Below, one piece after another: positions 3,129-17,652 of a DNA stretch of 52,864 bases. The stretch covers positions 1-52,864 of IMG/VR virus record IMGVR_UViG_3300030419_003351; one strand, written 5' to 3'. Numbering within the stretch: the stretch's first letter is position 1; the number at the start of each line of letters is the position of its first letter. This stretch comes from a virus. Taxonomy: Duplodnaviria > Caudoviricetes. The position numbers and the translations under genes are program-made. The notes under the pieces were generated by a model that ran no database searches, was not told where the DNA came from, and worked only from the letters and a program-made list of their open reading frames with translations.

Positions 3129-3211
3129 GTCCTAATCTCCTGTGGTTGGTTGGTTTTGCCCGTCGATTGGGCGATACTTCGATTATACCATAGTTATCGG
3201 TATTGTCAAGT

Positions 3212-3942: not shown

Positions 3943-4140
3943 CTAAATCGTAAAGGTATTGTCTAACCTACTCCAGAACTCCCTATCAATATACTTGGAT
4001 AGCTCCAGAGAAATATCTTCTACTGTCCAATCTTTAGCCATCTCAAACTTATCCAGATCATCAAAGTCTTCTGTCTCTGGGTTTTCCGATATGGTTTCGA
4101 GATTCAATCTCATAGCGTGTTTAATCTTTTCCTCAAACAT
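3943..4140 (-). CDS. hypothetical protein
   Basis: 65-aa acidic ORF coupled to the upstream gene. Confidence 0.55.
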   Translation of the reverse strand: MFEEKIKHAMRLNLETISENPETEDFDDLDKFEMAKDWTVEDISLELSKYIDREFWSRLDNTFTI

Positions 4141-4552
4141 TGTTTAATCCCACTTCCTTTTTTAATTTGGCGACATCCTCTATGGAAAAGTCAATAGCTA
4201 AATCCCATATTTCTTCAACGTAAGAAGCTCTCCAGAAAATATCGTATGTTTCCGTAGGTGAGTCACCCCAACTCATACCTCCTGTAACAAGAATTTCGTA
4301 CTCTTTTCCTTCGGGAGTATAGGCTGTATCTGGAGCTACTTCTCTACCATATGCGGAACCGTTGGCTTCCACTACCGAATCAAGTAAGGACTGCTTAATA
4401 TAGTTTTCATCTTCGTCATCAAAAAATAAATCCTCACGGAGTTCCTCATACTGCTCCTGCGAAATATTATCAATAGTTTCTCTAAATTTTGTCTCACGCT
4501 CGCTAGTCATAGTAAACGAGGGAAACTTCTGCATCGTAAAATCAGCACCCAT
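4133..4552 (-). CDS. hypothetical protein
   Basis: Start MGADF after GGAG RBS; promoter at 4592-4619. Confidence 0.65.
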   Translation of the reverse strand: MGADFTMQKFPSFTMTSERETKFRETIDNISQEQYEELREDLFFDDEDENYIKQSLLDSVVEANGSAYGREVAPDTAYTPEGKEYEILVTGGMSWGDSPTETYDIFWRASYVEEIWDLAIDFSIEDVAKLKKEVGLNNV

Positions 4553-4727
4553 ATCATTCTCCAAAAAGTGTTAGTCGGCGGTTATACTTTAATTATATAG
4601 TATATATCGTCAATGTCAAGTCAAAAGTTTAGAAAAAAAAGAAAAAATCGCAACATAAGTCAAGAATAATACTATGGCTGATAAGAATGGTATTTGAACC
4701 ACTATAAAAAACGATAAAACAAAGATG

Positions 4728-4931
4728 TCATGCTTCGTCATTTGCATCCTCTATTTTCTGCAACGTCATCATTATCAAGGCAAGATCATCTATTGCTTGA
4801 TTATACTGCTTATCAGACCATCCCCATACTCTTTTTTGCACCTCATACAATGCCGTTCCTTCCGATCTATCTAGCATGTCTAGTGCTATTTGGAGAGAAC
4901 GAATTATATCCTTATTTTCACGCTTCTTCAC
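4728..4931 (-). CDS. hypothetical protein
   Basis: 67-aa ORF in the minus-strand run downstream of promoter 5121-5149. Confidence 0.5.
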   Translation of the reverse strand: MKKRENKDIIRSLQIALDMLDRSEGTALYEVQKRVWGWSDKQYNQAIDDLALIMMTLQKIEDANDEA

Positions 4932-5157
4932 CCAATAATTCCTTGTATCTACTATTTAACCGTATAATCTGTTTTTCTGCCTCCTCCGCTTCAGACTTGG
5001 CAAAAGCGTCATTCATAACCCTTTCAAAATAACGAATTGCTAGGTCGATCTGTTCCATTTCGTACTCTTTTGTGATTTTAGGCATCCGATAACTCCTTGT
5101 TAAAAAGTAAACCGATACTGATTATAAACTATGTTTCGTCTATTGTCAATGGGAAGT

Positions 5158-5535
5158 TTAGTGTTTTTTTAGGATTTTCAATAGTTGTTCTTTGCTTTGC
5201 CCTCCAGTATACCGATCCGTAACTTTCTCATCTTTTTCAAATATAATTGTAGGAATATATTTTATCTTATATTTTTCCTTTTCTTTTTTATCTTCATCTA
5301 CATCATAATACACTACATCAAATCTGCTAAGTTCTGCCTTAACTTCCTTGCTCTGAAGATTCCTCTTTGTTATCTTACAAGGAGTACACCAAGTTGCCCC
5401 AAAATATAGAAGCCGTGTTTTTTTGCTCTCGTCTTGAGATGCCTCCAATTTAATTACAGTAACTTCTCTGTGGTTCTGTATATTAGTTAAGGAACAGAAC
5501 ATTAAAAAACCAACACAAAATAAAAAACCTTTCAT
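5158..5535 (-). CDS. thioredoxin-family protein with N-terminal signal/anchor
   Basis: WCTPC active site, cis-Pro motif IPT, hydrophobic N-terminus. Confidence 0.8.
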   Translation of the reverse strand: MKGFLFCVGFLMFCSLTNIQNHREVTVIKLEASQDESKKTRLLYFGATWCTPCKITKRNLQSKEVKAELSRFDVVYYDVDEDKKEKEKYKIKYIPTIIFEKDEKVTDRYTGGQSKEQLLKILKKH

Positions 5536-5577
5536 AGCCTCGCTCCGTGTAAAATATCAGGACAATATTTATACACA

Positions 5578-5790
5578 TTACTCGTCGTAGTAGTTTAAGT
5601 TCGTATTCCTTGAATGTGGATTTGGAAGCATACTATTTGATCTTACGAGTCTGGTCATCCATAGCTCATAGCACTTGGCACACTTAACTATATGGCCTTT
5701 ATTAGTAGAAATTTTGTAATAGTCAGTCGTTTTCTCATCACAGTCTATACAGATAAGAACCTCTTTCTTTTTTTTATCTTTTTTCTCCAT
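5578..5790 (-). CDS. small Zn-ribbon-like protein
   Basis: CIDC...CAKC motif pair. Confidence 0.55.
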   Translation of the reverse strand: MEKKDKKKKEVLICIDCDEKTTDYYKISTNKGHIVKCAKCYELWMTRLVRSNSMLPNPHSRNTNLNYYDE

Positions 5791-5960
5791 AAAAAACTTT
5801 TTTCTCCTTTTTTGTTTAGAATAGGGGTTTTTATTTCATTGTATAATAGACTCTAAGGGACTCATATTGCACAGTATTTTGAACCTTTTAGTAATATATA
5901 ACAGCACCAAATAGGTAAGACATTACATTAAGAAATAACCTTAAAAATATGGGGTTTTAC

Positions 5961-5989
5961 TTGACAAATACCTTTTAATACTATACAAT
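5961..5989 (+). promoter_or_regulatory. sigma70-type promoter
   Basis: TTGACA-N17-TACAAT in the AT-rich divergent intergenic region. Confidence 0.55.
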
Positions 5990-6309
5990 ATATATATAAC
6001 AACACATACAAAAACAATCAAGTTTAGATAGGACATTTACCGATATAGAATTTAGAGTTTAACCTCGTATACCCGCAATAAGTAATTAATGGGTCATTTC
6101 CCCACAAAGTTGTGTCTAAAAGATAATATAATGGGACAAAAAGGGAAGAAGTTAAATCTTTGTTGAGCCATTTGGGACATTTTTAGATAATATAAGGTGT
6201 ATATCCAACGGGTTCAATGGCCTTACGGCCTTAAAGCAAGAATATTAAATATAAATTAAAGTTTAGGTTAGACTAATTGTCCTACTCAAACCCCAAAAGG
6301 TAAATTAAA

Positions 6310-6708
6310 ATGCCAATACAAATAGATTCCGAACTTTTCCTGCCCAAAATTCATAAGAAGTGTGATTCTAGAATGATGGGAAACGAGAGTAAGAGATTAT
6401 CAAGTGCGGTATTAGAAATTGCACAGGGATGGTTTGATGATCCTCCATTTAAGCGTAACAAAGAAATAGATACTCAGGTCGAATGTAGAATAGACTTAAA
6501 GTATTATATACTTGAGAAGATAAAACTAAAAGATAGAAAAAGTAAATTTTTTATTCCAACTTTTGTCTGGGTATTCATCGCCCAACAAGTAATAAGTTAT
6601 ATTGTAAAGTTACTAATTGAACATTATTGGACTCATAGGGGAGCAGATGGAACATTAAATCTTCATGAGCAAATTCTATCTGAGATACATGACGTTGATA
6701 TTGAATGA
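6310..6708 (+). CDS. hypothetical protein, possible single membrane helix
   Basis: 132 aa, AAGG RBS, hydrophobic stretch FFIPTFVWVFIA. Confidence 0.6.
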   Translation: MPIQIDSELFLPKIHKKCDSRMMGNESKRLSSAVLEIAQGWFDDPPFKRNKEIDTQVECRIDLKYYILEKIKLKDRKSKFFIPTFVWVFIAQQVISYIVKLLIEHYWTHRGADGTLNLHEQILSEIHDVDIE

Positions 6709-6764
6709 ATAGATAATGTGTATAGTCCTTCATAGCAAGATAAATTCTATGGGGGGCGGCACAC

Positions 6765-7133
6765 ATGAAGTTATTTTCTTCAATAAAGAAATATCTAACA
6801 GATATGAGAACAGTAAAGTATGATAAATTTATATTATTAGGTTTTATTTGGATTTGGTTAGTTAGTATGCTAGACCATTATGCCACAATAAAATTACAGC
6901 AAACAATATTAGAAGAAGAAAGGAATCCTCTTGGTTCTTTTTTAATCAATATTGACTCTGGTTCTGTCGCTCTATTCATGACAGTTAAAATGATGTGCCT
7001 ATGGTTTATTGCCTGTATCATATTATCTATATATCAGGAAAACAAAATTAAATCATATCTTTGTATAGTTGCATTAGGTATATGCCAACTTCTCTTACTC
7101 TTTTACTTTATGTGGGGACACCATCTGCTATAA
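6765..7133 (+). CDS. membrane protein (3 predicted TM helices)
   Basis: TM segments flanking an E-x-NP motif; preceded by TGTGTATAG. Confidence 0.65.
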   Translation: MKLFSSIKKYLTDMRTVKYDKFILLGFIWIWLVSMLDHYATIKLQQTILEEERNPLGSFLINIDSGSVALFMTVKMMCLWFIACIILSIYQENKIKSYLCIVALGICQLLLLFYFMWGHHLL

Positions 7134-7140
7134 ATCTCAA

Positions 7141-7310
7141 AATGGCTGACTCCACTCAATGGCACGACTCTTAGAGTATAAGGTACGACAATGATACCAA
7201 AGTCGCTGACTGTCTCTCATGGCCCGACTCTTTATAGATAAGATACGACATACTTACCAAAGTCGCTGACTACCAGCATTGGGGCGAGTCGGGAGACATT
7301 AGATATGACA
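7141..7310. repeat. three imperfect tandem 60-bp repeats built from ~20-bp GAC-centred subunits
   Basis: Rows 7141, 7201 and 7261 align column for column (GCTGACT...GG..CGA(C/G)TC...AG.TA(C/T)GACA); related unit at 7635-7713. Confidence 0.8.
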
Positions 7311-7379
7311 ATATATAGTAATTATATATGTACATAAAGAAAGCCCATACATCAGAGGATGCAGGGCTATTCGAGGCCA

Positions 7380-7544
7380 TTAGCCTTTAACAGTAGTTTC
7401 TATCCAGTAGTGATCTTCGCCAAGAGTATTAACTAAATCTTCAGCATCAGATTGTTCGTAATAAATCTCTACTAGATCATCATTCTTATTTAATACTACA
7501 TAAACATAATTGTGTGATGGTGGTGGTTGGTTTTCATATACCAT
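7380..7544 (-). CDS. small hypothetical protein (54 aa, MVYENQPPP...)
   Basis: AGGAG RBS and promoter 7579-7607; below the ORF-track cutoff. Confidence 0.6.
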   Translation of the reverse strand: MVYENQPPPSHNYVYVVLNKNDDLVEIYYEQSDAEDLVNTLGEDHYWIETTVKG

Positions 7545-7809
7545 ATCATACTCCTAAGTGTGGTTGGTTTATATGTTAATTATACTATATACATCGTCAT
7601 TTGTCAACCCTTAACTTTAATAAAAATCCAAAATTGGCTGACTGGTGCTTATGGGGTGCGACTCTTTATTATTTAGGCACGACAAATTGGCTGACTCTAG
7701 GAAGTGGCTGACTCTAAGGCAATACCTAACTGCTCTGAAAAGAAGGGAAGAGACAAGAACAGGGAGGATGACGGAGGGGGAAGTTGCGGCGGTAAAAGCG
7801 AAAAAATAT

Positions 7810-7824
7810 TGGCACGTTGTTTGC
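7810..7824 (+). promoter_or_regulatory. sigma54 (-24/-12) consensus site
   Basis: TGGCACG-TTGT-TTGC. Confidence 0.5.
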
Positions 7825-8010
7825 GGGGGACAATTTTGTAGGCCGCCCGCATTTGCGGGTTTGTCAACCCCTATTCCCTAAAAACTTCAGAAAAAATACC
7901 AATAAAAAGAGCGACAATAAAAAGTAGAAGAAAAAACATATTTCACCCCATAAATAAAAAACCCCACCGGTAGACAAGTCCACCGGCAGGGATCTCGAAA
8001 GGGGTACTGA

Positions 8011-8937
8011 TTAAGCGGCCAATTCCAGTGCGAGCCTTTCAGCGTCCCGCACTTCTTTGGAATTAGAAGCCCGAAGGATTCTATCAAAGTCACCCTTGAA
8101 ACCTTCTTTGGCTTGTGCATCATGCTGGACAAATCCCTGAATGGCGTTATACGCTTCCCAAGCGGAAACAGTTTCAACCATAGCAGGACGGCCAGTGATG
8201 TTACGCTCTTTATTGAGACGCTTCCAGATTGCCTCAGTACGATTTTGGTGAGTCGTCACCGCCCGTACTGCTTGACCAGTTGCGGCTAACGCAAGCTGTT
8301 CTGGACTTGGTTGACCGTAAATCTGATTAAGAAAATCAGTCATGCGAACCTCAGTGGATTCGAGACGGTCAATAACGTCGGTCAGAGTTGACCAGCTATT
8401 TTTGAGAGTCTCAAACGTAGCGATTAATTCGTCCATGTTGGAACGCAAGCCGGAAGTGTGACGAATGGAAACGGTTGTACCGTTGACCATACGCATCATA
8501 GCAAGATTGCTACACGCATCACGGAAATAGCCCATAGTAGCGGTAAACGCTTTACCATCATAACCGGCGTTAATCATCACGCGAGGCCATACGTTATCCG
8601 TATCACGATCCTTATAGATCGACCGTCGCTGTTCAGCGGTCGGTTGAATAGAAACGTAATGCCCATTTCGGAAGTGAGTATTGCAAGCGATCTCACCGTC
8701 AAACGCTTCGCCAGCGGCATCGACTAACGCACAAACGTCATCAGTCGTATGGGGAACGTAGCGAGGTGAAACGGATTTCACGCCCTTGAGATAACCCGTA
8801 TCAGAACGGAACAAACCGTACTGATCGGTTGGCAAAACCTCCGTACCCATGACGGCGGATAGCGGATATTTTTCAACGTCGAAATTGAAGTCAGAACGAA
8901 CGGAAGCGGAAACGTCTTGTGCTTGAATGTTACTCAT
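8011..8937 (-). CDS. DUF932/DUF945-like phage protein
   Basis: LFRSDTG..L..VS.RY, N.YDG, RxxCxN (RDACSN), IRHT, SAWEAYNA motifs; start placed after GAAAGG RBS. Confidence 0.7.
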   Translation of the reverse strand: MSNIQAQDVSASVRSDFNFDVEKYPLSAVMGTEVLPTDQYGLFRSDTGYLKGVKSVSPRYVPHTTDDVCALVDAAGEAFDGEIACNTHFRNGHYVSIQPTAEQRRSIYKDRDTDNVWPRVMINAGYDGKAFTATMGYFRDACSNLAMMRMVNGTTVSIRHTSGLRSNMDELIATFETLKNSWSTLTDVIDRLESTEVRMTDFLNQIYGQPSPEQLALAATGQAVRAVTTHQNRTEAIWKRLNKERNITGRPAMVETVSAWEAYNAIQGFVQHDAQAKEGFKGDFDRILRASNSKEVRDAERLALELAA

Positions 8938-9118
8938 AGTAAACCCTTTCAAAATTGTGAAACTAAATCTTACACTCTCATTATACTATATATCGGCTAG
9001 ATGTCAAGCGATTCTTTAATCTTTTTTGGACTTTTTTTATTTTGGACTTTTTTGGCCGATTGTAGATTTTTCCTATTGACAAACCGGATTTTGCGGGCAG
9101 CCCCCAAAATATTTCCAA

Positions 9119-9251
9119 GGTCAACCGGCGACCCTCATGTTGGCGATGAGAGATCATTTATCTCCTGTTATCCCGCCGCCCTCTCTCACCTTACAGTTTA
9201 CCGCTGTTAGCGTAAGCGACGGGCAGGCAACCAACATAAAGGTCAACCGGC
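9119..9251 (-). ncRNA. candidate multibranched structured RNA
   Basis: 14-bp closing stem 9130-9143/9231-9244 plus inner stems; imperfect pairs are G-U only on the minus strand. Confidence 0.5.
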
Positions 9252-9268
9252 ATCTCTTGAAAGGAATA

Positions 9269-9499
9269 CTAGTCCTCGTGAGGCATCGTGCAATATACCT
9301 CGTAAGGTGTAGCGGCATAGGTCATTTGTGAATGGTCATCTTCCCACCATCCTACAAAGCCCTTTACCCCACCGGCAGAAGCAACTTCAAAACAGGCGAT
9401 GCGGTCGTTCGTTTGCTCCGCTAATTTACAGGTGCCTTCTTGACGAATCATTTTTTTTACAAAGCTATTAAATCTAGTAATACTTCCTACTTCGTCCAT
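9269..9499 (-). CDS. hypothetical protein
   Basis: 76-aa ORF with RBS, in operon with 9509..9976. Confidence 0.6.
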   Translation of the reverse strand: MDEVGSITRFNSFVKKMIRQEGTCKLAEQTNDRIACFEVASAGGVKGFVGWWEDDHSQMTYAATPYEVYCTMPHED

Positions 9500-9508
9500 G
9501 ATAATCCC

Positions 9509-9976
9509 CTAATGAAAAAATGGTGGTTTGTGACTGAAGGCCAACACCCTATTGTCAAGGATTGACAAGTCGGCATAGTCAGCGTTCTCTATTGGGCTTG
9601 CGTCATACTGCTTGATGAAGGTGTCGCAGGTGTATGGGTTGTAGTAGACTTGCTCCCATCGTGTTTCACCGTTTTCGATTTGCTGATCAGTGAGATGACC
9701 GTCAACCTTTTGGTCGGTCGTACGAGTATCAACCACATAGCCCTCAACAAACGCATGTACGTTCTTCTTCTGTTCATCCCTGACTCTCCTTTGTCCAGCC
9801 TTGGACACAATGAATTGACAACTTCTTAATGTAACATTTTCTGCATGACAGCGAACGATGCCGCCTTGCTTTACACTGTAGCAATCCCGATGCAGATTAC
9901 GATATACTCGCACCTTCTTTGTGGTGTCGATATGCTCTGCAATCTCAAAGCTCTTTTGTGTGCGTGGTTTCTTCAT
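9509..9976 (-). CDS. conserved phage hypothetical protein
   Basis: VYRNLH..CYSV, KNVHAFVEG, YNPY motifs; AAAGGA RBS; promoter 10003-10030. Confidence 0.75.
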   Translation of the reverse strand: MKKPRTQKSFEIAEHIDTTKKVRVYRNLHRDCYSVKQGGIVRCHAENVTLRSCQFIVSKAGQRRVRDEQKKNVHAFVEGYVVDTRTTDQKVDGHLTDQQIENGETRWEQVYYNPYTCDTFIKQYDASPIENADYADLSILDNRVLAFSHKPPFFH

Positions 9977-10082
9977 AACTTTTCCTTTCGTGTTATACTA
10001 CCATTATAATATATATATCGTCATTGTCAAATAAAATCTTCACATAAAACCATGTTTTTTGCCGGATTAATCTAAAAAGTTT

Positions 10083-10098
10083 TGGCACGACTTTTGCA
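10083..10098 (+). promoter_or_regulatory. sigma54 (-24/-12) consensus site
   Basis: TGGCACG-ACTT-TTGCA, full match to the consensus. Confidence 0.55.
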
Positions 10099-10217
10099 CC
10101 CCGCCCCCAAAATTTTATAAAACGAACAATACAATCTCAATACACAAAACCAAAACCGGCACGCAAATAAGATTCCATAATAATATTTTATATTCTAAAG
10201 ACATAACCAACACCTAT

Positions 10218-10251
10218 AAAAAACCGGCGACCCCCGGAGGGGTCAACCGGC
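10218..10251 (-). terminator. intrinsic terminator
   Basis: Minus strand: GACCCC-TCCG-GGGGTC hairpin, extended by flanking CCGG pairs, followed by a T-tract. Confidence 0.7.
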
Positions 10252-10268
10252 ACACACAACACGAATGA

Positions 10269-10547
10269 CTAAGCCGGTAGGAACGGCGAAACCAGAGAAC
10301 CCACAAACGGGATTTTGATTCCCCAATTCTGACGCTCTTTGTAGAACGCCTTCATACCGTCACGGGTTTGCACCGTGTCAAGGTCTCTCGACCGTTTGAA
10401 CTCGGGGTCATGCTTGCGGTATGCTCCCGTGATGGTTTCCCAACTGAGCGGGTGCTTGTTGGTATTGCGTCGGGATTGTAAAACACCCCAACGAAACTTT
10501 GCACCATCAACCGGCTGTTTGTAACTAAATAAAACTAAACTTTTCAT
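10269..10547 (-). CDS. hypothetical protein
   Basis: 92 aa, AGGAG RBS. Confidence 0.6.
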   Translation of the reverse strand: MKSLVLFSYKQPVDGAKFRWGVLQSRRNTNKHPLSWETITGAYRKHDPEFKRSRDLDTVQTRDGMKAFYKERQNWGIKIPFVGSLVSPFLPA

Positions 10548-10620
10548 CTTTGATTCGCTCCTGCAATTAAAAAACTTAAACCACTAAATAACGCTGCTAT
10601 TAGAAATAGATATAAATATA

Positions 10621-11403
10621 TCAACTCATCTTCACCTTTCTGCTATAGGAATGTTTAACCTTATCTCGTTTGAGAACCTTTAACGCTTCCGCTGCTCTTG
10701 AATCTTTTGGCTGTGTGCCATGAAGCAATAAAGCAAAATCGTTGTTTCGTAATGATGGACGGGCTGCGTGACTATCATCATGGTCGATGTCTAACCCTAA
10801 CGCTACCGCTTCCGCTTCGCTATATACTACCTTGCTTGAACGTAAATCAAACTCTTCGATTAAGTGGTCATGTGTTCCACCGTATGAAGCAGTTAAAACA
10901 AAGTTATGCAAAACAGGAAACTCGTTGATTGCAAGCCAGAACCTTAGCGATTTGGTATAGGCGTAGAATAGCGTATTAGGATTGAGTAGGGCGATTGTAT
11001 ACCACGCTTCCATGTACTGCTGATTGAAGAAATCACCCGCAACATGAATCCGAACAATACCGGCATTGGCGGGTAATGATTGATTGATAACGTCAACCAT
11101 CTCACCGCATGATAGTTTACGCAACACGTCAAAATTATGCTTGCGTAAATTGTAAACGCCGTTATACTGTACTTCCTGAGAAGCTGAGAAGCAACGGAAC
11201 TCTGTATCTTTTCCGTCTTTGATTTTACGTTTGCCGTTCGGTTGGACTACTGCCTTTGATAGGCATTGTTTGGCAAAGGGGCAAGAGAAGCCACTGAGAA
11301 GGTCAAGAGAATAAACTTTTTTCTTGTCGGTCAAATATTCCGATAGTTCGGAAACTTGTTTTAGTGCTTCGATTTTAGCATTGGCATTTGAGAATTTTAG
11401 CAT
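10621..11403 (-). CDS. GP88-like phage protein (Cys-containing)
   Basis: SCPFAKQC, RIHVAGDFF, FYAYTKS motifs typical of the GP88 family. Confidence 0.7.
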   Translation of the reverse strand: MLKFSNANAKIEALKQVSELSEYLTDKKKVYSLDLLSGFSCPFAKQCLSKAVVQPNGKRKIKDGKDTEFRCFSASQEVQYNGVYNLRKHNFDVLRKLSCGEMVDVINQSLPANAGIVRIHVAGDFFNQQYMEAWYTIALLNPNTLFYAYTKSLRFWLAINEFPVLHNFVLTASYGGTHDHLIEEFDLRSSKVVYSEAEAVALGLDIDHDDSHAARPSLRNNDFALLLHGTQPKDSRAAEALKVLKRDKVKHSYSRKVKMS

Positions 11404-11500
11404 TGTGATTCGCTCCGTGTGTTGTGTGATACTTCTCTATTATACTATATATTATCGGAATGTCAAGAGGTAATCTTTAACTTTTTTCCGTTTTTTTGTA

Positions 11501-11655
11501 TGGCGGACGGGGTGGGGAATCGAACCCCACACATGTAGGCACTGAGTCGGATTAGGTCTGAGCAACCCCGCAACTTTCTCGCCCATCGCGTCCGATAGCC
11601 TTTACTCGTTGTCAATCCTGTCAGTGTCTCATCCTACAAGACCACTTCCCGAACA
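11501..11655 (-). ncRNA. tRNA-like structured RNA with 3' CCA, no canonical anticodon arm
   Basis: 3' end GTGGGG-TTCGATT-CCCCAC-CCCGTCC-GCCA; long interrupted helix; dedicated promoter 11661-11688; no ORF. Confidence 0.7.
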
Positions 11656-11786
11656 CTTCCATTATATATTATATCGGCTATTTGTCAAGGGGAACTTCAG
11701 TATTTTCTCAAAAAAAAGCAAAAAAAAATTTTGCGGCCCGCCCACAAAACCTGCTTTGTCAACCCCAAAACCTTAAAAAAATCGTG

Positions 11787-11820
11787 AAAAAGGGAAAGGG
11801 GCATTGCTGCCCCGATCCCC
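11787..11820 (-). terminator. intrinsic terminator
   Basis: GGGGCA-GCAA-TGCCCC hairpin followed by TTTCCCTTTTT. Confidence 0.7.
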
Positions 11821-11844
11821 CACAACACGAAAGGTTAGCTTTGT

Positions 11845-12048
11845 TTAGAGTGAAGCCACACACTTTGCAATGGACAATGAGCGAATTTGCCCATTATTTT
11901 CCTGAACGGTGATACCCCGTCCACTCGGCCCTGTAAAGCTGGCGAGCTTTTTGCCCTCAACTTTTCGCAGGACATTCTTTTTTCCTCCTACAGGATAGAG
12001 GAAAGAAACTTTGCGTTCGTTACGCTTACTATAGAGATCGTTCAACAT
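11845..12048 (-). CDS. hypothetical protein
   Basis: 67-aa basic ORF, last gene before the terminator. Confidence 0.6.
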   Translation of the reverse strand: MLNDLYSKRNERKVSFLYPVGGKKNVLRKVEGKKLASFTGPSGRGITVQENNGQIRSLSIAKCVASL

Positions 12049-12193
12049 TGATAAACCTTTCTACTTGTGAAAAAGAAAACTGTTTGACACCTTCCGCAGT
12101 GTCGATCAAAACATGGTCGCTCTTTATGGCAACAACCGTTCCAGCGGGAAATTTAGTACCGATTCCCACAATCGGCTTTTGACTACTACTCAT
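12029..12193 (-). CDS. small hypothetical protein
   Basis: Start MSSSQKP overlapping the upstream stop. Confidence 0.55.
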   Translation of the reverse strand: MSSSQKPIVGIGTKFPAGTVVAIKSDHVLIDTAEGVKQFSFSQVERFINVERSL

Positions 12194-12422
12194 CTTCTGA
12201 TGACTCCTCTTGTGCAAGTTTATGAGCTTCCTCGACTCGTGAAGCCGCAAGTTCTGTCAGCTTATCGCCCAACTTCTTGTGAAGCTGTTTCATGACTTCC
12301 TCTGACATCGTGAAGACAACCTTGTCTTCTCCTGCGTAAAGCTCTACTTCGTTGTCGGACTTCCAAGTGGAAACATAGCTGTGTGAGATCTGTCCAAAAT
12401 CTACTGTTTGTGAAATCTTCAT
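12186..12422 (-). CDS. hypothetical protein
   Basis: 78 aa, AAGGAG RBS. Confidence 0.65.
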   Translation of the reverse strand: MKISQTVDFGQISHSYVSTWKSDNEVELYAGEDKVVFTMSEEVMKQLHKKLGDKLTELAASRVEEAHKLAQEESSEDE

Positions 12423-12444
12423 AAGACTTCTCCTTTCAAAAATG

Positions 12445-12530
12445 TTGCGGATGCAGTGGCTCTTAACCCTAACTCACTTGCTTGATATTATTCGCCTCAA
12501 GACGGGCGGGTGAGTTCCAGTTCCGTGTCG
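12445..12530 (-). ncRNA. candidate pseudoknotted 5' leader RNA
   Basis: Helix 12471-77/12510-16 enclosing crossed pairs 12481-85/12497-501 and 12493-96/12505-08. Confidence 0.4.
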
Positions 12531-12566
12531 TGTTACACTACCATTATACTATAATTATCGTCAATG

Positions 12567-12734
12567 TCAAGCGGTTTCTTTAGCAATTTCCAGAATAATT
12601 TTAGATTCTTTTGCAAGTTCTGAATCTTTGTCGATATACAGAGAACCTGCTACTCCCTGTTGAGCAGCACCTACGCTTGCCGCATAACGAATTTTACTTT
12701 TAGTTTCTTTGTCTTTGAGGAATGTTAAACTCAT
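12567..12734 (-). CDS. small hypothetical protein (55 aa, MSLTFLKDKE...)
   Basis: AAAGG RBS, open frame; not in ORF track. Confidence 0.55.
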   Translation of the reverse strand: MSLTFLKDKETKSKIRYAASVGAAQQGVAGSLYIDKDSELAKESKIILEIAKETA

Positions 12735-12753
12735 AACTTTCTACCTTTCAATG

Positions 12754-12906
12754 TTAAACATCTGCTTGCCACGCACGACGTTGTGCTTGGCGTGTACGGA
12801 TTCGCTTAGGCCGGTTGTCATGCACTTGATGCGTGTTGGCCTGATGGCCGACTGACGGTTTCCCGACCTTAATCTTGAGCGTTATTGTTTTCTTGTTGTT
12901 TCTCAT
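12754..12906 (-). CDS. small basic protein (50 aa, MRNNKKTITLKIK...), probably leaderless
   Basis: ATG 6 nt downstream of the -10 box at 12913-12918. Confidence 0.55.
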   Translation of the reverse strand: MRNNKKTITLKIKVGKPSVGHQANTHQVHDNRPKRIRTRQAQRRAWQADV

Positions 12907-12989
12907 ACTCTTATTATACTATATATATCGTCGTTGTCAAGTCTTTTCTTTAATCTTTTTTGAATTTTTTGCTGACTTTGGCTGACTGG

Positions 12990-13268
12990 TCTATATCTGG
13001 CGGTTCTCGGGAGAGATAGGATAAGACAAGCATCACGATGGCAGGCCATTCCATCTGCACCGTAGTTTGCTGCGTCCCTTTTTAAGTTCACTAGGAACCG
13101 GAGTTGACTTACGCCTCGATGCACCCCTAAATCGTCTTACCGATCCTGTCCTTACGTAATGGCTACAAAGGCCTTAAAGGGGTTGTGATGTTGTCTCTGT
13201 GTAAGACGCCTCTTTCGAGGAACCAATTCCAGCGGCGTAGTTCCAACTGGGTTGTAGCTGACTTACTC
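12990..13268 (-). ncRNA. candidate large structured ncRNA
   Basis: Own promoter 13273-13300, no credible ORF, several 6-8 bp complementary blocks and a CCTC-GAAA-GAGG hairpin. Confidence 0.55.
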
Positions 13269-13421
13269 CTCCATTATAATATATATCGGCCAAATGTCAA
13301 GGGTATCTTTACAAAATTCTCTAAAAAAAAGAAAAATTCTTTGCGTCGTAAGTCCTTTAATAGCAAGGGTTTACAGCAAATTGCGGGCAGCCCCCATTTT
13401 TTGACTGGCTACCGATAGGAG

Positions 13422-13580
13422 CTAATTACGTTCACGGCGAACCAAACCCAACCGGCGGATAAGACGAACCATAAAACTGATTTTAGTCTGTCGTTCATTT
13501 TCCAATCTCCTTTTTTCAATATTTTCTAATCGTTGATAGTAACGTGATAATTCTACTGCGTGTGCTTTTCTCATTCTCAT
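13422..13580 (-). CDS. small basic hypothetical protein
   Basis: Start MRMRKAH after a G-rich RBS. Confidence 0.45.
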   Translation of the reverse strand: MRMRKAHAVELSRYYQRLENIEKRRLENERQTKISFMVRLIRRLGLVRRERN

Positions 13581-13652
13581 ATTAACCCCGACACTATACA
13601 ACCGGCAACGAAAGCCAACAAACAAAACCATAACGCATTCATCTGCTCTTTA

Positions 13653-13940
13653 TTATATTTCATTTTTCCATTCCTTATAATCTTCAACTGTCATAAAGGT
13701 CATCTGTCCGGCGTGATTCAACAACCACGGAAAACCAAATTCATCTTCAACCCATAGGTCTAACAATTCTAAATTTCCACTCGCTGCGGTTTCTTCCATA
13801 ACCTCACTAGGCACGGCAACCTTCATAGAGCTAATCGGCCCAGAACTTTTACCTTCCCATTCTTCTTGAGGTTTTAGAATTCTTGCAAGCGTAACCATCA
13901 TCACGCCCATACCATAAACAGGACTATAATCATCGTGCAT
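13653..13940 (-). CDS. hypothetical protein
   Basis: Start MHDDY after GGAGG RBS. Confidence 0.6.
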   Translation of the reverse strand: MHDDYSPVYGMGVMMVTLARILKPQEEWEGKSSGPISSMKVAVPSEVMEETAASGNLELLDLWVEDEFGFPWLLNHAGQMTFMTVEDYKEWKNEI

Positions 13941-13941
13941 C

Positions 13942-14307
13942 TTATTCTTCCTCCAAGTCATCAGCGTCAATCATACCACTATTAACCATACCGCCAACGA
14001 AAGCCATCATATTTTTATGAAGCTGGATTTCATCCTTCTCGTTTTCGCTATAGTCTAATTCACAATCAATATCACGACCATTAACCTGTTTGCGTAATCG
14101 TTCAATATTACGAGCCTTTAACGCTTTAAGTTTTTGGTGTGCGGTTTCCGTATCCGCTTCATCTTCGCACATCTCATTTAATCGTGCAAGCGTGCGACCA
14201 CCACGAACATCATCATGGAACTTTTTGGGAAGCCACTCATTAGGCACGACAATCATTTCCTGAGTAGCGACTTCCAACTCTTTCAACATTTCTTCAACGC
14301 TTTTCAT
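13942..14307 (-). CDS. hypothetical protein
   Basis: Start MKSVEE after AAGGA RBS; promoter 14336-14364. Confidence 0.65.
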   Translation of the reverse strand: MKSVEEMLKELEVATQEMIVVPNEWLPKKFHDDVRGGRTLARLNEMCEDEADTETAHQKLKALKARNIERLRKQVNGRDIDCELDYSENEKDEIQLHKNMMAFVGGMVNSGMIDADDLEEE

Positions 14308-14839
14308 AATCAATTTCCTTTGTGTTATGCTTCCCATTATAATATATATCGGCACATTTGTCAAGAGGTCTTAAACTCTTTTTCAATTTTTTCCAATCTT
14401 TTTTCTATGTCGTTCCATATGAACAAACCACCGAGGAAACCACCCATGAAGCAAATGCAAACTGTAACCATAATTAAACCTTTCATTAATTGTTATACTA
14501 AGAGTATACCATAATCATCGGCATTTGTCAAGGGGTATCTTAACTAATTTTCATAAATTTTTAGTATTTTTGAAACAGCCCAGCCGACTGGCAAAAGCAA
14601 CGCCGGAACGACCACGAACATCATAAACTCATCATTTTCAAATAAACTCATTTCTTCACCTTTGCAAATTTAGATTGTGCTAGTTTTTTGTGTGTCTGTT
14701 TGAGAGTACCCTTTGCAAGGCATCCCGTGAATATATCCGCGTGCCGCTTGAGACTCGCGTTGTGTTTGGCTATCGCTATTTTTTTATTGTTTAGCATGTC
14801 TTATCCTTTCCTGCTATATATATATTATCGCACATGGGT

Positions 14840-14858
14840 GTGACACGTTAGGTCACTG
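14840..14858. promoter_or_regulatory. palindromic operator-like site GTGAC-N7-GTCAC, copy 1
   Basis: 19-bp identity with 16838-16856. Confidence 0.55.
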
Positions 14859-14938
14859 CCGACTGATTTTTTCAAAAAAAAGGGAAAAACTTTTTGCGGG
14901 CCGCCCGCAATTTTGTCAAGCCCCCTAGAAGGGGGAGG

Positions 14939-15127
14939 TTAGCAGAAAGCACACTCGTCTAATGTCGGCGTGTACTCTCCGCCTTGCTTGCCGCACTTGG
15001 GACAGATGTCGCTTTCATCTAGGACGATGAACAAATCATCCTCTAGCTCCATCTCCTCCTCGCACCACATCCAGTACTGCAAGGAACCGTCATCTTCGGG
15101 TTGAAAATTTTCGTCGTGATCGTTCAT
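14939..15127 (-). CDS. small acidic Zn-finger-like protein
   Basis: CPKC...CAFC with acidic N-terminus. Confidence 0.55.
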   Translation of the reverse strand: MNDHDENFQPEDDGSLQYWMWCEEEMELEDDLFIVLDESDICPKCGKQGGEYTPTLDECAFC

Positions 15128-15217
15128 GAATCCACTCATCAAACAAGCCAAGTAAAACGGGAAAGGTGACGGCGGCAACCGTCGCCCATTCCCAAAAGGT
15201 AATCATTTCGCTGCTCA

Positions 15218-15502
15218 TCAGTCCCAATCCCTCAAAGCGTAGTTTTCCCATTCGGCGGCGTACATATCCACCGGATCGTAGTCCGTGTAATCGTCGTCCC
15301 ACGGCTCCTGTGGGTACAGACTCGGATCTTCATCCATCTCCGCATAGAAGTCACGATGCGGATCGAAGTCCGAAGGCTCAAGCTCAGGCTCCGCAGCCTC
15401 TTGCTCCTCAAGCCAAGCGGAGTACTCCTCCCAATCGGCCTGTGTAGGCTCGTAGGAAGCAAGTTCGTCGGACTGGATAGAAGTGTCAAATTTAGAGAAC
15501 AT
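15218..15502 (-). CDS. highly acidic hypothetical protein
   Basis: 94 aa, about one third D/E; GAAAGG RBS; promoter 15543-15570. Confidence 0.7.
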   Translation of the reverse strand: MFSKFDTSIQSDELASYEPTQADWEEYSAWLEEQEAAEPELEPSDFDPHRDFYAEMDEDPSLYPQEPWDDDYTDYDPVDMYAAEWENYALRDWD

Positions 15503-15666
15503 AGAAAAACCTTTCAAAAAGTGATGTGTTTTGTATAACCCCATTATACATAATATCGGCAGAATGTCAAGGGGTTCTTTAGAAAAAAATCAAAGTTTTT
15601 GGTAATTGAGTGATTTCGACAGAGCTTACCAAACTCCACACCCCCGAAGGGGGACGGTGCGATCAA

Positions 15667-15882
15667 CTATTCCTCTTCAGGAAACATAGCGTCGAAGCAA
15701 GTATCGCAGGTTTCGGAGATTAACATCTCTCGATCCTCTGCACTCAGGTACGGCATAGCCGCCTGAATTAACTCGCCCTCTTGCCAGCGTTGCCAATCGT
15801 TAGCATTGAAGCTAATCTTTTGACACTCGCCGCACAAGCGACACTGAGCGTTGACCGTCACGTTCAATCGTGTTGCGATCAT
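15667..15882 (-). CDS. Zn-finger-like protein, probably leaderless
   Basis: CRLC...CDTC; ATG 6 nt downstream of the -10 box at 15889-15894. Confidence 0.65.
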   Translation of the reverse strand: MIATRLNVTVNAQCRLCGECQKISFNANDWQRWQEGELIQAAMPYLSAEDREMLISETCDTCFDAMFPEEE

Positions 15883-16163
15883 GTCTACATTATACCACAA
15901 AAAGTTAATCTTGTCAAGGGTAAAACAAAAGAATTTCAAAAAATTATTGTAAAACTTCTGCACCCAAAAAACCAACAAAACAAGCCATCAACAGTAAAAC
16001 AAAAAACGTCATATCAACTTCCTCCTTTATATAATATATATCGGCACAAGTCAATAGCGATCTTGAGAAAAAATCAAAAAAACAGCAAAAAAATTTTTGC
16101 GGGCGGGGCACAATTTTGTCAAGCCCCCTATAAGAGGGCCTGAGCTATGTCGGAATTCTTAGG

Positions 16164-16445
16164 CTACGACGGCAGGCATCCGTCAAGGATACCGCCGTGA
16201 GCGTCAAGCTCTGCCTGTACTACTTCAACCGGCACCCAACCATAAACGGTTTCGGTGTAGTCGTGATCGCCAAAGCATTCTGCATAGCTGCGTAGCTCTG
16301 CTGTCTTGGGCGTAGTAGATGGAAAGCCACACTCTACCGTAACAGGTACGCCATCGGTGTTACGCTGTGAGTATGCACCTTCGTGAGCCTGTACGCTAAT
16401 GTTGAAGCCATCGGTGCAAGTGATTCTAGGATTGTGAGAGAACAT
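16164..16445 (-). CDS. conserved phage hypothetical protein
   Basis: C.DGF.ISVQA...VECGFPS...VYGWVP...HGG; start after GAAAGG RBS. Confidence 0.7.
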   Translation of the reverse strand: MFSHNPRITCTDGFNISVQAHEGAYSQRNTDGVPVTVECGFPSTTPKTAELRSYAECFGDHDYTETVYGWVPVEVVQAELDAHGGILDGCLPS

Positions 16446-16542
16446 ATTAAAACCTTTCAAGTTAAAAGAAAAACCGGAATCTTGAATAGCCTTAACCGGC
16501 GGGCTATGCTTGCGACTAGGGCAAGGCTTGCGGGTTAAACCC

Positions 16543-16782
16543 TTAACCACCTGAATCAACTCGGTAGGTGATACCGCACTCGTTACAAGTGTGTTGATTG
16601 TAACACGTACCAAGATTGGTACGAGTCATATTGTAATCTCTTACAATTTCCGGCGTACGAGTAATGACACCGTTCACAGTACTGCTCATGATAGTCTCAC
16701 GTTCAGTACCACACTCGGCCAAGTGCCTAGTGTATTCTTTTGGCTGTTCTTTCCAGCCATTCATAGTTCCTAAATCAATCAT
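16543..16782 (-). CDS. hypothetical protein with C-terminal CxxC
   Basis: Start MIDLG after AAGGA RBS. Confidence 0.55.
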   Translation of the reverse strand: MIDLGTMNGWKEQPKEYTRHLAECGTERETIMSSTVNGVITRTPEIVRDYNMTRTNLGTCYNQHTCNECGITYRVDSGG

Positions 16783-16837
16783 AACAATTCCTTTCTTTTG
16801 TGTTGTGTTTGTCATATTATTATTATCGTCTATGGTC

Positions 16838-16856
16838 GTGACACGTTAGGTCACTG
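16838..16856. promoter_or_regulatory. palindromic operator-like site GTGAC-N7-GTCAC, copy 2
   Basis: 19-bp identity with 14840-14858. Confidence 0.55.
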
Positions 16857-17067
16857 GAACGTACTTTCCTACAATTTTTTTCCACTTTTTCATAACGTAG
16901 TCATATTGGCCGGTTGTCTCTGGATTGCTGATGCAGTTGCCAGCTTCGTTGACACTACTGCAAATGATGTATTTGCCGTAGGTGTTATGACGCACCAAGT
17001 ACCGCATACCGGTTGGGGTGTCTTTGATCATTCGGATCTCGTAGGGTTTCATTCCGCGTAGTAACAT
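16846..17067 (-). CDS. hypothetical protein
   Basis: 73 aa, AAGGA RBS, promoter 17093-17121. Confidence 0.6.
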   Translation of the reverse strand: MLLRGMKPYEIRMIKDTPTGMRYLVRHNTYGKYIICSSVNEAGNCISNPETTGQYDYVMKKWKKIVGKYVPVT

Positions 17068-17130
17068 TTTATTTCCTTTGTGTTATATTTTAAGTATACC
17101 ATATAAATCGGCTTTTGTCAAGCCCAATCT

Positions 17131-17307
17131 TTATTTATTTATGGTATTTTGTAAGGTTTTTTTTCTGCCCCACAATCGTTGCAGGTCATTCATTAGACAG
17201 TTTTTATTCCACTGTCCTAATTCCTTATTGTAACGAATCAAAGTTTTTTCGATTCGTCGGTCAATTTTGAACAGTTCTAGTTTAGCGTTTTGTTTTGTAA
17301 GAGTCAT
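17131..17307 (-). CDS. small helical protein, paralogue A
   Basis: MTLTKQNAKLELFK...ELGQWNKNC...LQRLW; promoter 17333-17361. Confidence 0.7.
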   Translation of the reverse strand: MTLTKQNAKLELFKIDRRIEKTLIRYNKELGQWNKNCLMNDLQRLWGRKKTLQNTINK

Positions 17308-17652
17308 TTTATTTCCTTTCGTTGTGCTTTTCATTATACTATACTTATCGGCTTTTGTCAAGGGTATTCTTTAATTATTCTTAAAGTTTTTTTAATTTAT
17401 TTTTTATTGCCGATTGTTATTTCCTTATTAATTATATCGACATTATACCATAAAACCTTTAACCTGTCAAGGCCGATTGAGCAATTTTTTATAAAAAAGA
17501 CAAGATTTTTTTTTGCGGGCGGGGCACAATTTTGCTGTGTATACATACCCCCATAGCCCCTATCAGGTTTCTTAGGCTGTGACACACCATGTGGCCTAGT
17601 CACTCGCTCCCTAAATAGCCTAGACACTCGTGTTAGATAGGCTAAGACAAGC

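What the first reader, a model, noticed from the sequence alone, without database searches (positions are those of the whole stretch)
12990..13300. ~280-nt promoter-driven, ORF-free RNA with interlocking helices
Seen: complementary blocks a 13252-58/13162-68 (GCTACAA), b 13201-08/13133-40 (CGTCTTAC) and c 13178-83/13123-28 (ACCCCT), in the order a-b-c-a'-b'-c'. There is also a CCTC-GAAA-GAGG GNRA hairpin (13209-20), 3' hairpins such as GATGG/CCATC, and a direct repeat GTAAGTCA(G/A)CT (13256-66, 13102-12). It is GC-richer than its flanks. Inference: a multiply pseudoknotted or switching ncRNA.
Basis: partly seen in the sequence, partly recalled or inferred. Interest (0 to 1): 0.72.

Follow-up and report, generated by a model that had tools for sequence, protein, structure and literature searches.

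The report
New pseudoknotted RNA of marine phages
This stretch encodes a previously undescribed, tightly folded non-coding RNA made from a strong early promoter of an uncultured marine phage; it is real and conserved, but its job is still unknown.

Summary
Taken alone, complementary blocks of this size are no more than chance gives.

Comparison with related sequences shows a real RNA gene on the minus strand.
- A perfect TTGACA-N16-TATAAT promoter (13300-13273) drives an ORF-free transcript.
- Its ~150-nt core (13183-13037) is 91% identical across 39 distinct homologues from marine viral and metagenome contigs. The immediate flanks are 47-54% identical.
- Seven helices plus one pseudoknot (a junction segment pairing with the P7 loop) are supported: 98.1% of cells pair, against 36-41% in slid controls, and seven pairs show compensatory changes.
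- Helices a and b tie the core to a 65-nt 5' module that only 9 of 39 homologues carry. That module closes on itself, so the a-b-c interlock is not supported.

The RNA has no Rfam match, no conserved reading frame, and is single-copy per genome.

Function is inferred only. The most likely role is a trans-acting early RNA that binds a protein. The rivals are cis antitermination, a ribozyme or a riboswitch. It is a new RNA family.

The parts
13273..13300 (-). Sigma-70 consensus promoter, TTGACA-N16-TATAAT. The inferred transcription start is near 13266.
   Evidence: It scores 12/12. A consensus promoter stands upstream of the core in 31 of 39 distinct homologues, and L051 has a degenerate -35. 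The start site is inferred from spacing and has not been measured.
13201..13266 (-). Accessory 5' module, present only in the long form of the RNA. It has a closing stem GUAAG (13266-13262) with CUUAC (13205-13201), a CCAG/CUGG stem, and a GNRA-capped hairpin CCUC-GAAA-GAGG (13220-13209).
   Evidence: Present in 9 of 39 distinct homologues. One RNA-library contig skips exactly 13198-13262. The hairpin covaries CCUC/GAGG to CCCC/GGGG. The closing stem covaries C-G to U-A, is 9 bp long in L047, and the module stands alone between two ORFs in L019, L056 and L059.
13184..13200 (-). Unpaired, CA-rich 5' leader (ACAGAGACAACAUCACA).
   Evidence: Conserved in alignment A2. It resembles the leaders of other early transcripts of this phage group.
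13123..13183 (-). These are the 5' strand of the pseudoknot (AGGCC, 13174-13170), hairpin P2 (13169-13152, loop GCCAU) and hairpin P3 (13146-13129, invariant loop GUAAGA).
   Evidence: P1 is 97.9% paired. P2 is 95.7% paired with 4 pairs that vary on one side. P3 is 100% paired, with the forms A-U, G-C and G-U.
13057..13122 (-). Domain 2: a long arm made of P4 (13122-13117 with 13062-13057), P5 (13114-13112 and 13102-13100 with 13077-13072) and P6 (13098-13086). It carries an invariant bulge UAAGUCAA and an A-rich internal loop.
   Evidence: P4 is 100% paired. In P5 the segment UCC/GGA becomes UAC/GUA in 2 sequences. In P6, GUUC/GAAC becomes GCCC/GGGC, with 8 and 6 sequences showing changes on both sides.
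13037..13055 (-). P7 hairpin (GAUGG/CCAUC). Its loop GGCCU (13047-13043) forms the pseudoknot with 13174-13170.
   Evidence: The pseudoknot is 100% paired across 39 sequences. One pair takes the forms G-C (32), A-U (3), C-G (2) and G-U (1).
13005..13036 (-). 3' tail: the conserved UGUCUUAUC (13028-13020) followed by a small variable hairpin P8 (13016-13005). No run of U follows it.
   Evidence: Pairing between the tail and the P3 loop is 92.3% paired but has no change on both sides and is broken in the UCUCAUC variants. No terminator-like site follows on the minus strand.
12913..12985 (-). Conserved A-rich stretch followed by the next consensus promoter (12940-12913). That promoter drives a leaderless small basic ORF (ATG at 12906). 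This marks the outer limit of the RNA.

Best explanation
**Shown.** The minus strand of about 13266-13005 is a stand-alone gene for a structured non-coding RNA of a new family. A consensus early promoter of an uncultured marine tailed phage transcribes it. The conserved core (13183-13037, about 150 nt) folds into two domains:
- a three-way junction, P1-P2-P3;
- a long arm, P4-P5-P6.

A pseudoknot between the P1/P2 junction and the loop of a terminal hairpin (P7) locks these together. The window's copy also has an optional, self-contained 65-nt 5' module ending in a GNRA tetraloop.

**Inferred.** The RNA is made in quantity early in infection and acts in trans as a pre-folded ligand for a protein, as decoy, inhibitor or scaffold. 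The partner would be either a host factor during takeover or defence evasion, or one of the small arginine-rich phage proteins encoded just downstream. The invariant unpaired nucleotides (the P3 loop GUAAGA, the bulge UAAGUCAA and the A-rich loop) would build the tertiary fold and the binding surface.
For: **Gene and strand**
- Perfect promoter on the minus strand, kept at a fixed distance from the core in 31 of 39 distinct homologues.
- 171 G.U cells. 98.9% of cells pair on the minus strand against 88.9% if read on the plus strand.

**Not coding**
- No frame is open in more than 6 of 39 homologues.
- Variable columns fall 25/23/21 by codon position.
- A 1-nt indel is present in 14 of 39.

**Structure**
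- 98.1% of 1905 cells pair, against 36.5-40.7% when partners are slid.
- 7 pairs show changes on both sides. 0 of 500 shuffles reach any of the five measures.

**Selection**
- The core is 91% identical on average. The adjacent 5' and 3' parts are 54% and 47%.

**Stand-alone, trans-acting character**
- The next gene has its own consensus promoter and a leaderless ATG 6 nt after the -10 element in 45 of 63 loci. The RNA therefore cannot be that gene's translational leader.
- The RNA occurs in several gene neighbourhoods.
- It is single-copy: 1 in the window, 1 in a relative rated 100% complete, and 1 in a relative rated 88% complete.
- It is absent from some syntenic relatives, as accessory early genes often are.

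**Optional module.** An optional peripheral module with a GNRA loop is typical of RNAs with an elaborate tertiary fold. This point is general knowledge and was not tested here.
Against: - No partner has been identified, and no binding was tested.
- No transcript ends are known. No intrinsic terminator follows the RNA in the window, so a discrete RNA species is an assumption.
- Contigs from RNA libraries cover the core but are short and of low depth. Some include promoter sequence, so they do not prove transcription.
- The single-sequence fold is not unusually stable.
- The neighbouring small basic protein also occurs without the RNA, in L076 and L079.
- The alignment is shallow in divergence (effective sequence number 1.01). 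Most pairs never vary.
Confidence: 0.45

Rival explanations
1. The RNA is a cis-acting transcription element of the early operon, in the manner of put or nut sites. The nascent RNA, alone or with the small arginine-rich protein encoded downstream, would modify the RNA polymerase that made it. That polymerase would then read through the downstream terminators.
For: - The RNA is promoter-proximal and has no terminator of its own.
- Terminator-like sites lie downstream in the same unit, at 11813 and 11752 on the minus strand.
- Small leaderless ORFs with arginine-rich stretches followed by W or F come next in 45 of 63 loci.
- The conserved tail is followed by a hairpin of variable sequence.
- The type-1 protein was not found in the three syntenic loci that lack the RNA.
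Against: - This is one of at least 17 perfect promoters in the early region and is not the first of them. Each downstream gene has its own promoter.
- The core is far larger and more intricate than known elements of this kind (recalled).
- In 7 of 39 homologues the RNA has no promoter of its own and follows an ORF.
- The downstream gene differs among loci.
- The type-1 gene occurs without the RNA in L076 and L079.
- A short recalled boxA-like motif is not enriched in the window: 11 found against 8.3 expected.
Confidence: 0.17
2. The RNA is a catalytic RNA, for example a self-cleaving or processing ribozyme that sets transcript ends in a promoter-dense region with few terminators.
For: - The fold is compact and locked by a pseudoknot, and many unpaired nucleotides are invariant.
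- It carries an optional peripheral module with a GNRA loop.
- It lacks a terminator.
- It occurs both after a promoter and between cistrons.
Against: - No match to any ribozyme family in Rfam, even at E up to 10.
- No cleavage site can be read from the data. The ends of the RNA-library contigs do not coincide.
- The RNA is larger than the common small self-cleavers (recalled).
Confidence: 0.12
3. The RNA is a riboswitch-like sensor. The core would bind a metabolite or ion and control read-through into the genes downstream.
For: - The junction and pseudoknot are conserved and the unpaired positions invariant.
- In 4 of the 7 variants without a promoter (L028, L032, L017, L053) the core ends in P7 followed by a T-rich stretch.
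- A possible minimal variant in L080 is followed by a terminator hairpin.
Against: - The downstream gene has its own promoter and is leaderless.
- The downstream genes vary and none has a metabolic function.
- No expression platform is conserved.
- No riboswitch family in Rfam matches.
Confidence: 0.07
4. This is the reader's model: a multiply interlocked or switching RNA in which blocks a, b and c (order a-b-c-a'-b'-c') form alternative or simultaneous pseudoknots.
For: - The blocks exist.
- Block c is conserved as P1.
- The 3' strand of the 5' module can pair either with its own 5' end or with the P3 loop. The conserved tail UGUCUUAUC is also complementary to that loop, with 92.3% of cells paired. 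Competition for the P3 loop is therefore conceivable in long-form members.
Against: - Blocks of this size are at chance level.
- Blocks a and b need a module that 30 of 39 homologues lack.
- Neither a nor b shows compensatory change. Block a is weakened in L008 and L047.
- The change in b is compensated in the module's own closing stem instead.
- Block a excludes P2, which is supported.
Confidence: 0.06
5. The region encodes a small protein or a DNA-level signal such as an operator, an origin or a palindrome.
For: - Small ORFs overlap the region.
- Two 8-nt palindromes lie in the core. In three homologues the second is replaced by another palindrome.
Against: - No frame is conserved, there is no 3-nt periodicity, and there are 1-nt indels.
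- 171 G.U pairs hold on one strand only.
- The compensatory changes fit RNA helices.
Confidence: 0.03

Closest known systems
HK022 put RNAs and lambdoid nut sites with N protein (processive antitermination)
   Same: A structured, ORF-free RNA just downstream of an early phage promoter, with no terminator of its own. Small arginine-rich proteins are encoded next to it, and terminators lie further down the unit.
   Different: - About 150-260 nt with seven or eight helices and a pseudoknot, against one or two hairpins (recalled).
- One of at least 17 promoters, and downstream genes have their own promoters.
- No enrichment of a boxA-like motif.
- Activity was not tested.
phi29-type packaging RNA (pRNA)
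   Same: A phage-encoded ncRNA of similar size made from an early promoter. A short loop pairing (here GGCC with GGCC) covaries between phages. Covariation cannot tell whether that pairing is within one molecule or between molecules.
   Different: - pRNA belongs to small podoviruses with protein-primed replication (recalled).
- This phage is a contig of a genome estimated at about 160 kb, with a terminase, a portal and a 2500-aa tail protein.
- No sequence or Rfam similarity.
- The architecture is different.
P1/P7 c4 and P4 CI antisense RNAs (Rfam C4 family)
   Different: - No match to the C4 family.
- Blocks a and b are neither conserved nor compensated.
- The complement of the P3 loop is not enriched in the window: 16 found against 15.2 expected.
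Orphan complex-folded bacterial and phage RNAs (GOLLD, ROOL, raiA, OLE, HEARO)
   Same: Conserved, intricate folds with many invariant unpaired nucleotides and no known biochemical function when they were discovered. GOLLD and ROOL are linked to phages. For the cryo-EM paper, 10.1101/2024.12.08.627333, only the search listing and the start of the abstract were seen.
   Different: Much smaller. No Rfam hit to any of them. Restricted, so far, to one group of marine phage contigs.

Membership tests
Any Rfam 15 family (4227 models) | The covariance-model score reaches the family's gathering threshold. | tested here: not met
   No matches in the whole window at gathering thresholds. In 12700-13500 at E up to 10 there were only four chance-level hits, with best E = 3.1, to unrelated eukaryotic and viral families.
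C4 antisense RNA (P1/P7 c4, P4 CI) | Loops of the RNA pair with two conserved target blocks in the same operon. | tested here: not met
   Blocks a and b lie in a module absent from 30 of 39 homologues. They show no compensatory change. GTCTTAY is not enriched.
put-type cis antiterminator RNA | A promoter-proximal structured RNA in an early operon, upstream of terminators. | tested here: inconclusive
   Promoter-proximal in 31 of 39 homologues, and terminator-like sites lie at 11813 and 11752. However, 7 of 39 lack a promoter of their own, and downstream genes have their own promoters.
put-type cis antiterminator RNA | Suppresses termination in cis by binding RNA polymerase. | not testable with these tools
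   This needs transcription assays.
lambda-type nut site with N protein | boxA followed by a boxB hairpin with a GNRA-like loop, bound by an arginine-rich peptide. | tested here: inconclusive
   The conserved tail is followed by a hairpin, P8, but the P8 loops vary (UCCC, UAAC, GGCA, AGAC). A recalled boxA-like motif is not enriched. Arginine-rich small ORFs lie downstream. Binding was not tested.
phi29-type pRNA | Intermolecular loop-to-loop pairing that builds a ring on the portal of a phi29-like phage. | not testable with these tools
   A covarying 5-bp loop pairing exists, but whether it is within or between molecules cannot be told. The phage type differs.
Retron or defence-associated reverse transcriptase ncRNA | A reverse transcriptase gene partnered with the RNA. 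| tested here: not met
   PF00078 was found in 0 of 3 records, including a relative rated 100% complete. The controls were positive.
Y RNA / YrlA | A Ro (TROVE) protein partner. | tested here: not met
   PF05731 was found in 0 of 3 records. The controls were positive. No Rfam match.
tRNA / tmRNA | Cloverleaf or tRNA-like domain detectable by ARAGORN. | tested here: not met
   ARAGORN finds no tRNA or tmRNA genes in the window.
Small protein-coding gene | A conserved open frame, substitution pattern with a period of three, and indels in multiples of three. | tested here: not met
   The best frame is open in only 6 of 39 homologues. Variable columns fall 25/23/21 by codon position. A 1-nt indel is present in 14 of 39.

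The most novel reading that the evidence does not exclude
The core is a new class of self-folding functional RNA carried by marine phages. It would be either a ribozyme that processes the promoter-dense, terminator-poor early transcripts, or an RNA that assembles into multimers through its palindromic GGCC loop pairing. It would work alongside the second, tRNA-like early RNA of the same phages.
Probability: 0.12. Interest if true: 0.9.

Novelty: categorically new. Interest (0 to 1): 0.63.

Why it matters
Complex, pseudoknotted RNAs with many invariant unpaired nucleotides are rare. When their functions are eventually solved, they have usually turned out to be ribozymes, riboswitches or the cores of RNA-protein machines.

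This one is a compact example (a core of about 150 nt) with three useful properties:
- a clear promoter;
- a natural set of variants: a short form, a long form with an add-on module, and possibly a minimal form;
- a single covarying pseudoknot pair that can be tested by compensatory mutation.

It sits in the early, host-takeover region of an abundant but uncultured group of marine phages of roughly 140-170 kb. A second structured RNA, tRNA-like, lies about 1.4 kb downstream. If the RNA binds a host factor or a defence protein, it would add an RNA-based tool to the takeover repertoire of phages. If it is catalytic, it would be a new ribozyme class.

"New" here means a new RNA family with no detectable relative. 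Whether its mechanism is new is unknown.

Tried and rejected
- **Rfam.** Whole window at gathering thresholds, and two regions at E up to 10: nothing relevant.
- **ARAGORN.** No tRNA or tmRNA.
- **Similarity searches.** No match among cultured phages, E. coli genomes or plasmids.
- **Thermodynamic stability.** No signal.
- **Single-sequence complementary blocks.** At chance level.
- **Coding.** Rejected.
- **Pairing of the P3 loop with the 3' tail.** Left open. 92.3% of cells pair, but there is no change on both sides and the pairing is broken in the UCUCAUC variants.
- **Antisense targets of the P3 loop elsewhere in the window.** GTCTTAY is not enriched.
- **boxA-like motif (recalled).** Not enriched.
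- **Expression.** 16 marine RNA-library runs hold a small share of the words. Four were laid and show short, low-depth contigs of relatives over the core. Some contigs extend into promoter sequence and their ends do not coincide, so neither transcription nor RNA ends can be claimed.
- **More distant homologues.** The covariance model found none in the syntenic loci L006, L009 and L010, nor in G003.
- **Possible minimal variant.** One candidate lacking the P4-P6 arm was found in L080 (18.3 bits, E about 5e-4). A loose pattern scan for more gave 80 loci, of which only L140, from the same contig, matched. It remains a single unconfirmed case.
- **Reverse transcriptase and Ro partners.** Absent from 3 of 3 records.
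- **Literature.** Three searches found no description of this RNA. One further search was rejected for a malformed term.
- **Fremin et al. 2023 (PMC10690425).** The outline and section 2.1 were read. I cannot tell whether parts of this RNA are among them.

Full report
**Setting.** The window is a 52,864-base viral contig rated about 33% complete. It encodes a large terminase, a portal, a head protein, a 2500-aa tail protein and rIIA. Its terminase is at most about 30% identical to that of any cultured phage. Bases 1 to about 17,500 are read on the minus strand and hold at least 17 perfect TTGACA-N16/17-TATAAT promoters. Most of the genes there are small and of unknown function: GP88, the L5 gp82 family and DUF932. 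The finding lies inside this early-type region.

**The observation.** These are blocks a, b and c, the CCUC-GAAA-GAGG hairpin, the GATGG/CCATC hairpin, the direct repeat, the higher GC content (0.50 against 0.34-0.42) and a perfect promoter at 13300-13273 on the minus strand.

On their own the blocks mean little. In 500 dinucleotide shuffles of 12990-13300, exact complementary 8-mers, 7-mers and 6-mers occur about as often as observed: 1 against 0.60, 3 against 2.59 and 16 against 10.3. The minimum-free-energy fold is ordinary too, with z = -0.27 on the minus strand and +1.28 on the plus strand.

**Homologues.**
- A neighbouring protein (GP88) and three short DNA patterns brought in related marine viral and metagenome contigs, plus one 152-kb contig filed under a bacterial MAG.
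- nhmmer found the element in 63 places including the window. Two pattern hits, L057 and L061, were chance matches inside coding sequence.
- 39 distinct full-length cores were aligned (A2; core only, A3).
- The core is 91% identical on average. The 13 columns before it and the 23 columns after it are 54% and 47% identical.
- A covariance model built from A3 finds one copy in the window, one each in relatives rated 100% and 88% complete, and none in a relative rated 75% complete. It also finds none in the syntenic loci L006, L009 and L010.
- There is no match in Rfam, cultured phages, E. coli genomes or plasmids.

**Not coding, and on the minus strand.**
- No reading frame of either strand is open in more than 6 of 39 homologues.
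- The 69 variable columns fall 25/23/21 by codon position.
- A single-base indel splits the set 14 to 25.
- The promoter points leftward. 171 of 1671 paired cells are G.U, so 98.9% of cells pair on the minus strand against 88.9% on the plus strand.

**The fold.** RNAalifold on ten sequences, followed by inspection of the 39, gave this model (positions in window coordinates, minus strand):

| Element | Position | Notes |
|---|---|---|
| P2 | 13169-13152 | hairpin |
| P3 | 13146-13129 | loop GUAAGA invariant |
| P4 | 13122-13117 with 13062-13057 | |
| P5 | 13114-13112 and 13102-13100 with 13077-13072 | |
| P6 | 13098-13086 | |
| P7 | 13055-13037 | |
| Pseudoknot | AGGCC 13174-13170 with GGCCU 13047-13043 | 3' strand lies in the P7 loop |

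Counting on A2 (the 49 pairs counted also include the trial P3-loop/tail pairing covered under "The 3' side" below):
- 98.1% of 1905 cells pair, against 36.5-40.7% when partners are slid by 1-3 columns.
- 7 pairs change on both sides.
- 0 of 500 shuffles reach any of the five measures.

Examples of supporting changes:
- P6 changes from GUUC/GAAC to GCCC/GGGC.
- P5 changes from UCC/GGA to UAC/GUA.
- P3 shows A-U, G-C and G-U at one pair.
- One pseudoknot pair takes the forms G-C (32 sequences), A-U (3), C-G (2) and G-U (1).
- In three homologues, six consecutive transitions on the 3' strand of P2 keep four of its pairs through wobble pairing.

Two caveats apply. The model was derived from these same sequences. 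The set is shallow (effective sequence number 1.01), so most pairs never vary.

- In 22 of 39 homologues the promoter stands 8-19 nt before the core. In 9, including the window, a 65-nt module lies in between.
- One RNA-library contig of a relative skips exactly 13198-13262.
- The module has a covarying GNRA-capped hairpin: CCUC/GAGG in 3 sequences and CCCC/GGGG in 7, with loops GAAA or GCAA.
- Its ends pair with each other as GUAAG with CUUAC. The next pair is C-G in four sequences and U-A in four. L047 has nine continuous pairs there.
- In L019, L056 and L059 the module stands alone between two ORFs, closed by AAGACG/CGUCUU.
- The same G-to-A change leaves an A.C mismatch with the invariant P3 loop, which argues against helix b.
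- Helix a uses the 5' strand of P2, which is supported. It is weakened without compensation in L008 and L047.
- The interlocked a-b-c design is therefore not supported. Competition for the P3 loop in long-form members cannot be excluded.

**The 3' side.**
- After P7 come a conserved tail (UGUCUUAUC, 13028-13020) and a small hairpin of variable sequence (13016-13005). No run of U follows, and no terminator-like site was found.
- The tail is complementary to the P3 loop (92.3% of cells pair), but this pairing has no change on both sides and is broken in five variants.
- A conserved A-rich stretch and the next consensus promoter (12940-12913) follow. The RNA is therefore at most about 320 nt long, and its true 3' end is unknown.

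**Neighbourhood.**
- Among the 63 loci, 45 have a promoter 76-103 nt after the core followed by an ATG 6 nt after the -10 element. Seven have a promoter but no such ATG. Five have no promoter within 500 nt. Six end too soon to tell. Many of these loci are near-duplicates.
- The leaderless ORFs are small and basic, with an arginine-rich stretch followed by W or F.
- This 50-aa protein was not found in the three loci that lack the RNA. It does occur without the RNA in L076 and L079.
- In 7 of 39 homologues the RNA has no promoter of its own and directly follows an ORF.
- In L080 a possible minimal form lacks P4-P6 but keeps a matching pseudoknot. It follows a different gene and is followed by a terminator hairpin. 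It scores 18.3 bits, is a single case and is unconfirmed.

**Expression.** Sixteen marine RNA-library runs hold a small share of the words. In the four runs that were laid, short low-depth contigs of relatives cover the core. Some extend into promoter sequence and their ends do not coincide. This is not evidence of transcription or of RNA ends.

**What it most likely does.** The following is shown:
- It is a conserved, pseudoknotted, non-coding RNA gene with its own early-type promoter.
- It is single-copy and accessory within its phage group.
- It is independent of any one neighbouring gene.

From this I infer a trans-acting RNA that offers a pre-folded surface to a protein. The partner would be a host factor during takeover or defence evasion, or one of the small basic phage proteins. 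I put this at about 0.45.

| Rival | Confidence | Main points |
|---|---|---|
| Cis antitermination | 0.17 | For: the position, the absence of a terminator, downstream terminators at 11813/11752 and the arginine-rich neighbours. Against: the many independent promoters and the varied contexts. |
| Ribozyme | 0.12 | |
| Riboswitch | 0.07 | |
| Coding or DNA-level signal | 0.03 | |

No reverse transcriptase or Ro protein is encoded in three related records.

**Novelty.** No family in Rfam 15 matches, and three literature searches found no description. A 2023 screen of IMG/VR intergenic regions (PMC10690425; outline and section 2.1 read) lists 8495 unnamed candidates of 29-151 nt in supplements I could not open. 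Parts of this RNA may be listed there without characterisation. I class it as a new RNA family. Whether its mechanism is new is open.

Noticed in passing
window 11490-11660 (minus strand); promoter 11688-11661: A second ORF-free RNA driven by its own promoter. Its 5' and 3' ends form an acceptor-like stem next to a T-arm (GGGGUUCGAUUCCCC), and it ends in GCCA. About 110 nt of other helices take the place of the D and anticodon arms. Across 18 distinct homologues, 17 of 37 predicted pairs show compensatory changes. ARAGORN calls no tRNA and Rfam gives only a weak tRNA-Sec hit at E = 3. It is also present in L006, which lacks the main RNA.
   Followed up: partly
window 800-17470, minus strand: At least 17 perfect 12/12 TTGACA-N16/17-TATAAT promoters, all pointing the same way. 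For the N16 form there are 11, against 0.05 expected by chance. The spacers are similar (CGATATATA...). Only a few terminator-like sites occur, at 14910, 11813, 11752, 10245 and 7991.
   Followed up: partly
window 12754-12906 (minus strand) and homologues: A leaderless small gene whose ATG lies 6 nt after the -10 element. It encodes a 50-aa basic protein with an arginine-rich C-terminus ending in RRAWQ. In L016-type loci another short leaderless ORF with a similar arginine-rich stretch followed by W or F precedes it. Pfam has no match.
   Followed up: partly
L019 3735-3810 (minus strand); also L056 and L059: The 65-nt 5' module of the long-form RNA also occurs on its own between two ORFs in relatives whose main RNA is the short form. 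This suggests a small structured cassette that can move independently.
   Followed up: partly
L080 2840-2942 (same contig as L140): A possible minimal variant of the RNA. The 66-nt P4-P6 arm is replaced by 11 nt. The pseudoknot partners (AAAGCC and GGCUU) are kept, and a terminator hairpin follows. It scores 18.3 bits and is a single case.
   Followed up: partly
window 13152-13159 and 13168-13175 (minus strand): Two 8-nt palindromes in the core, UUACGUAA and AAGGCCUU. In L033, L024 and L069 the first is replaced by another perfect palindrome, UCGUACGA, through six transitions. L035 has UUGCAA there. Whether this reflects dimerisation or only the P2 wobble pairs is unresolved.
   Followed up: no
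window 12425-12536 (minus strand): An untranslated leader of about 110 nt lies between the consensus promoter at 12570-12543 and the 78-aa gene that starts at 12422. I did not examine it for structure or conservation.
   Followed up: no
L073 (genome contigs record VFHP01000007.1): A 152,655-base contig filed under a SAR202 MAG carries a core identical to that of the 166-kb viral contig holding L016. It is probably a phage contig binned with a bacterial genome, so it is not evidence of the host.
   Followed up: no
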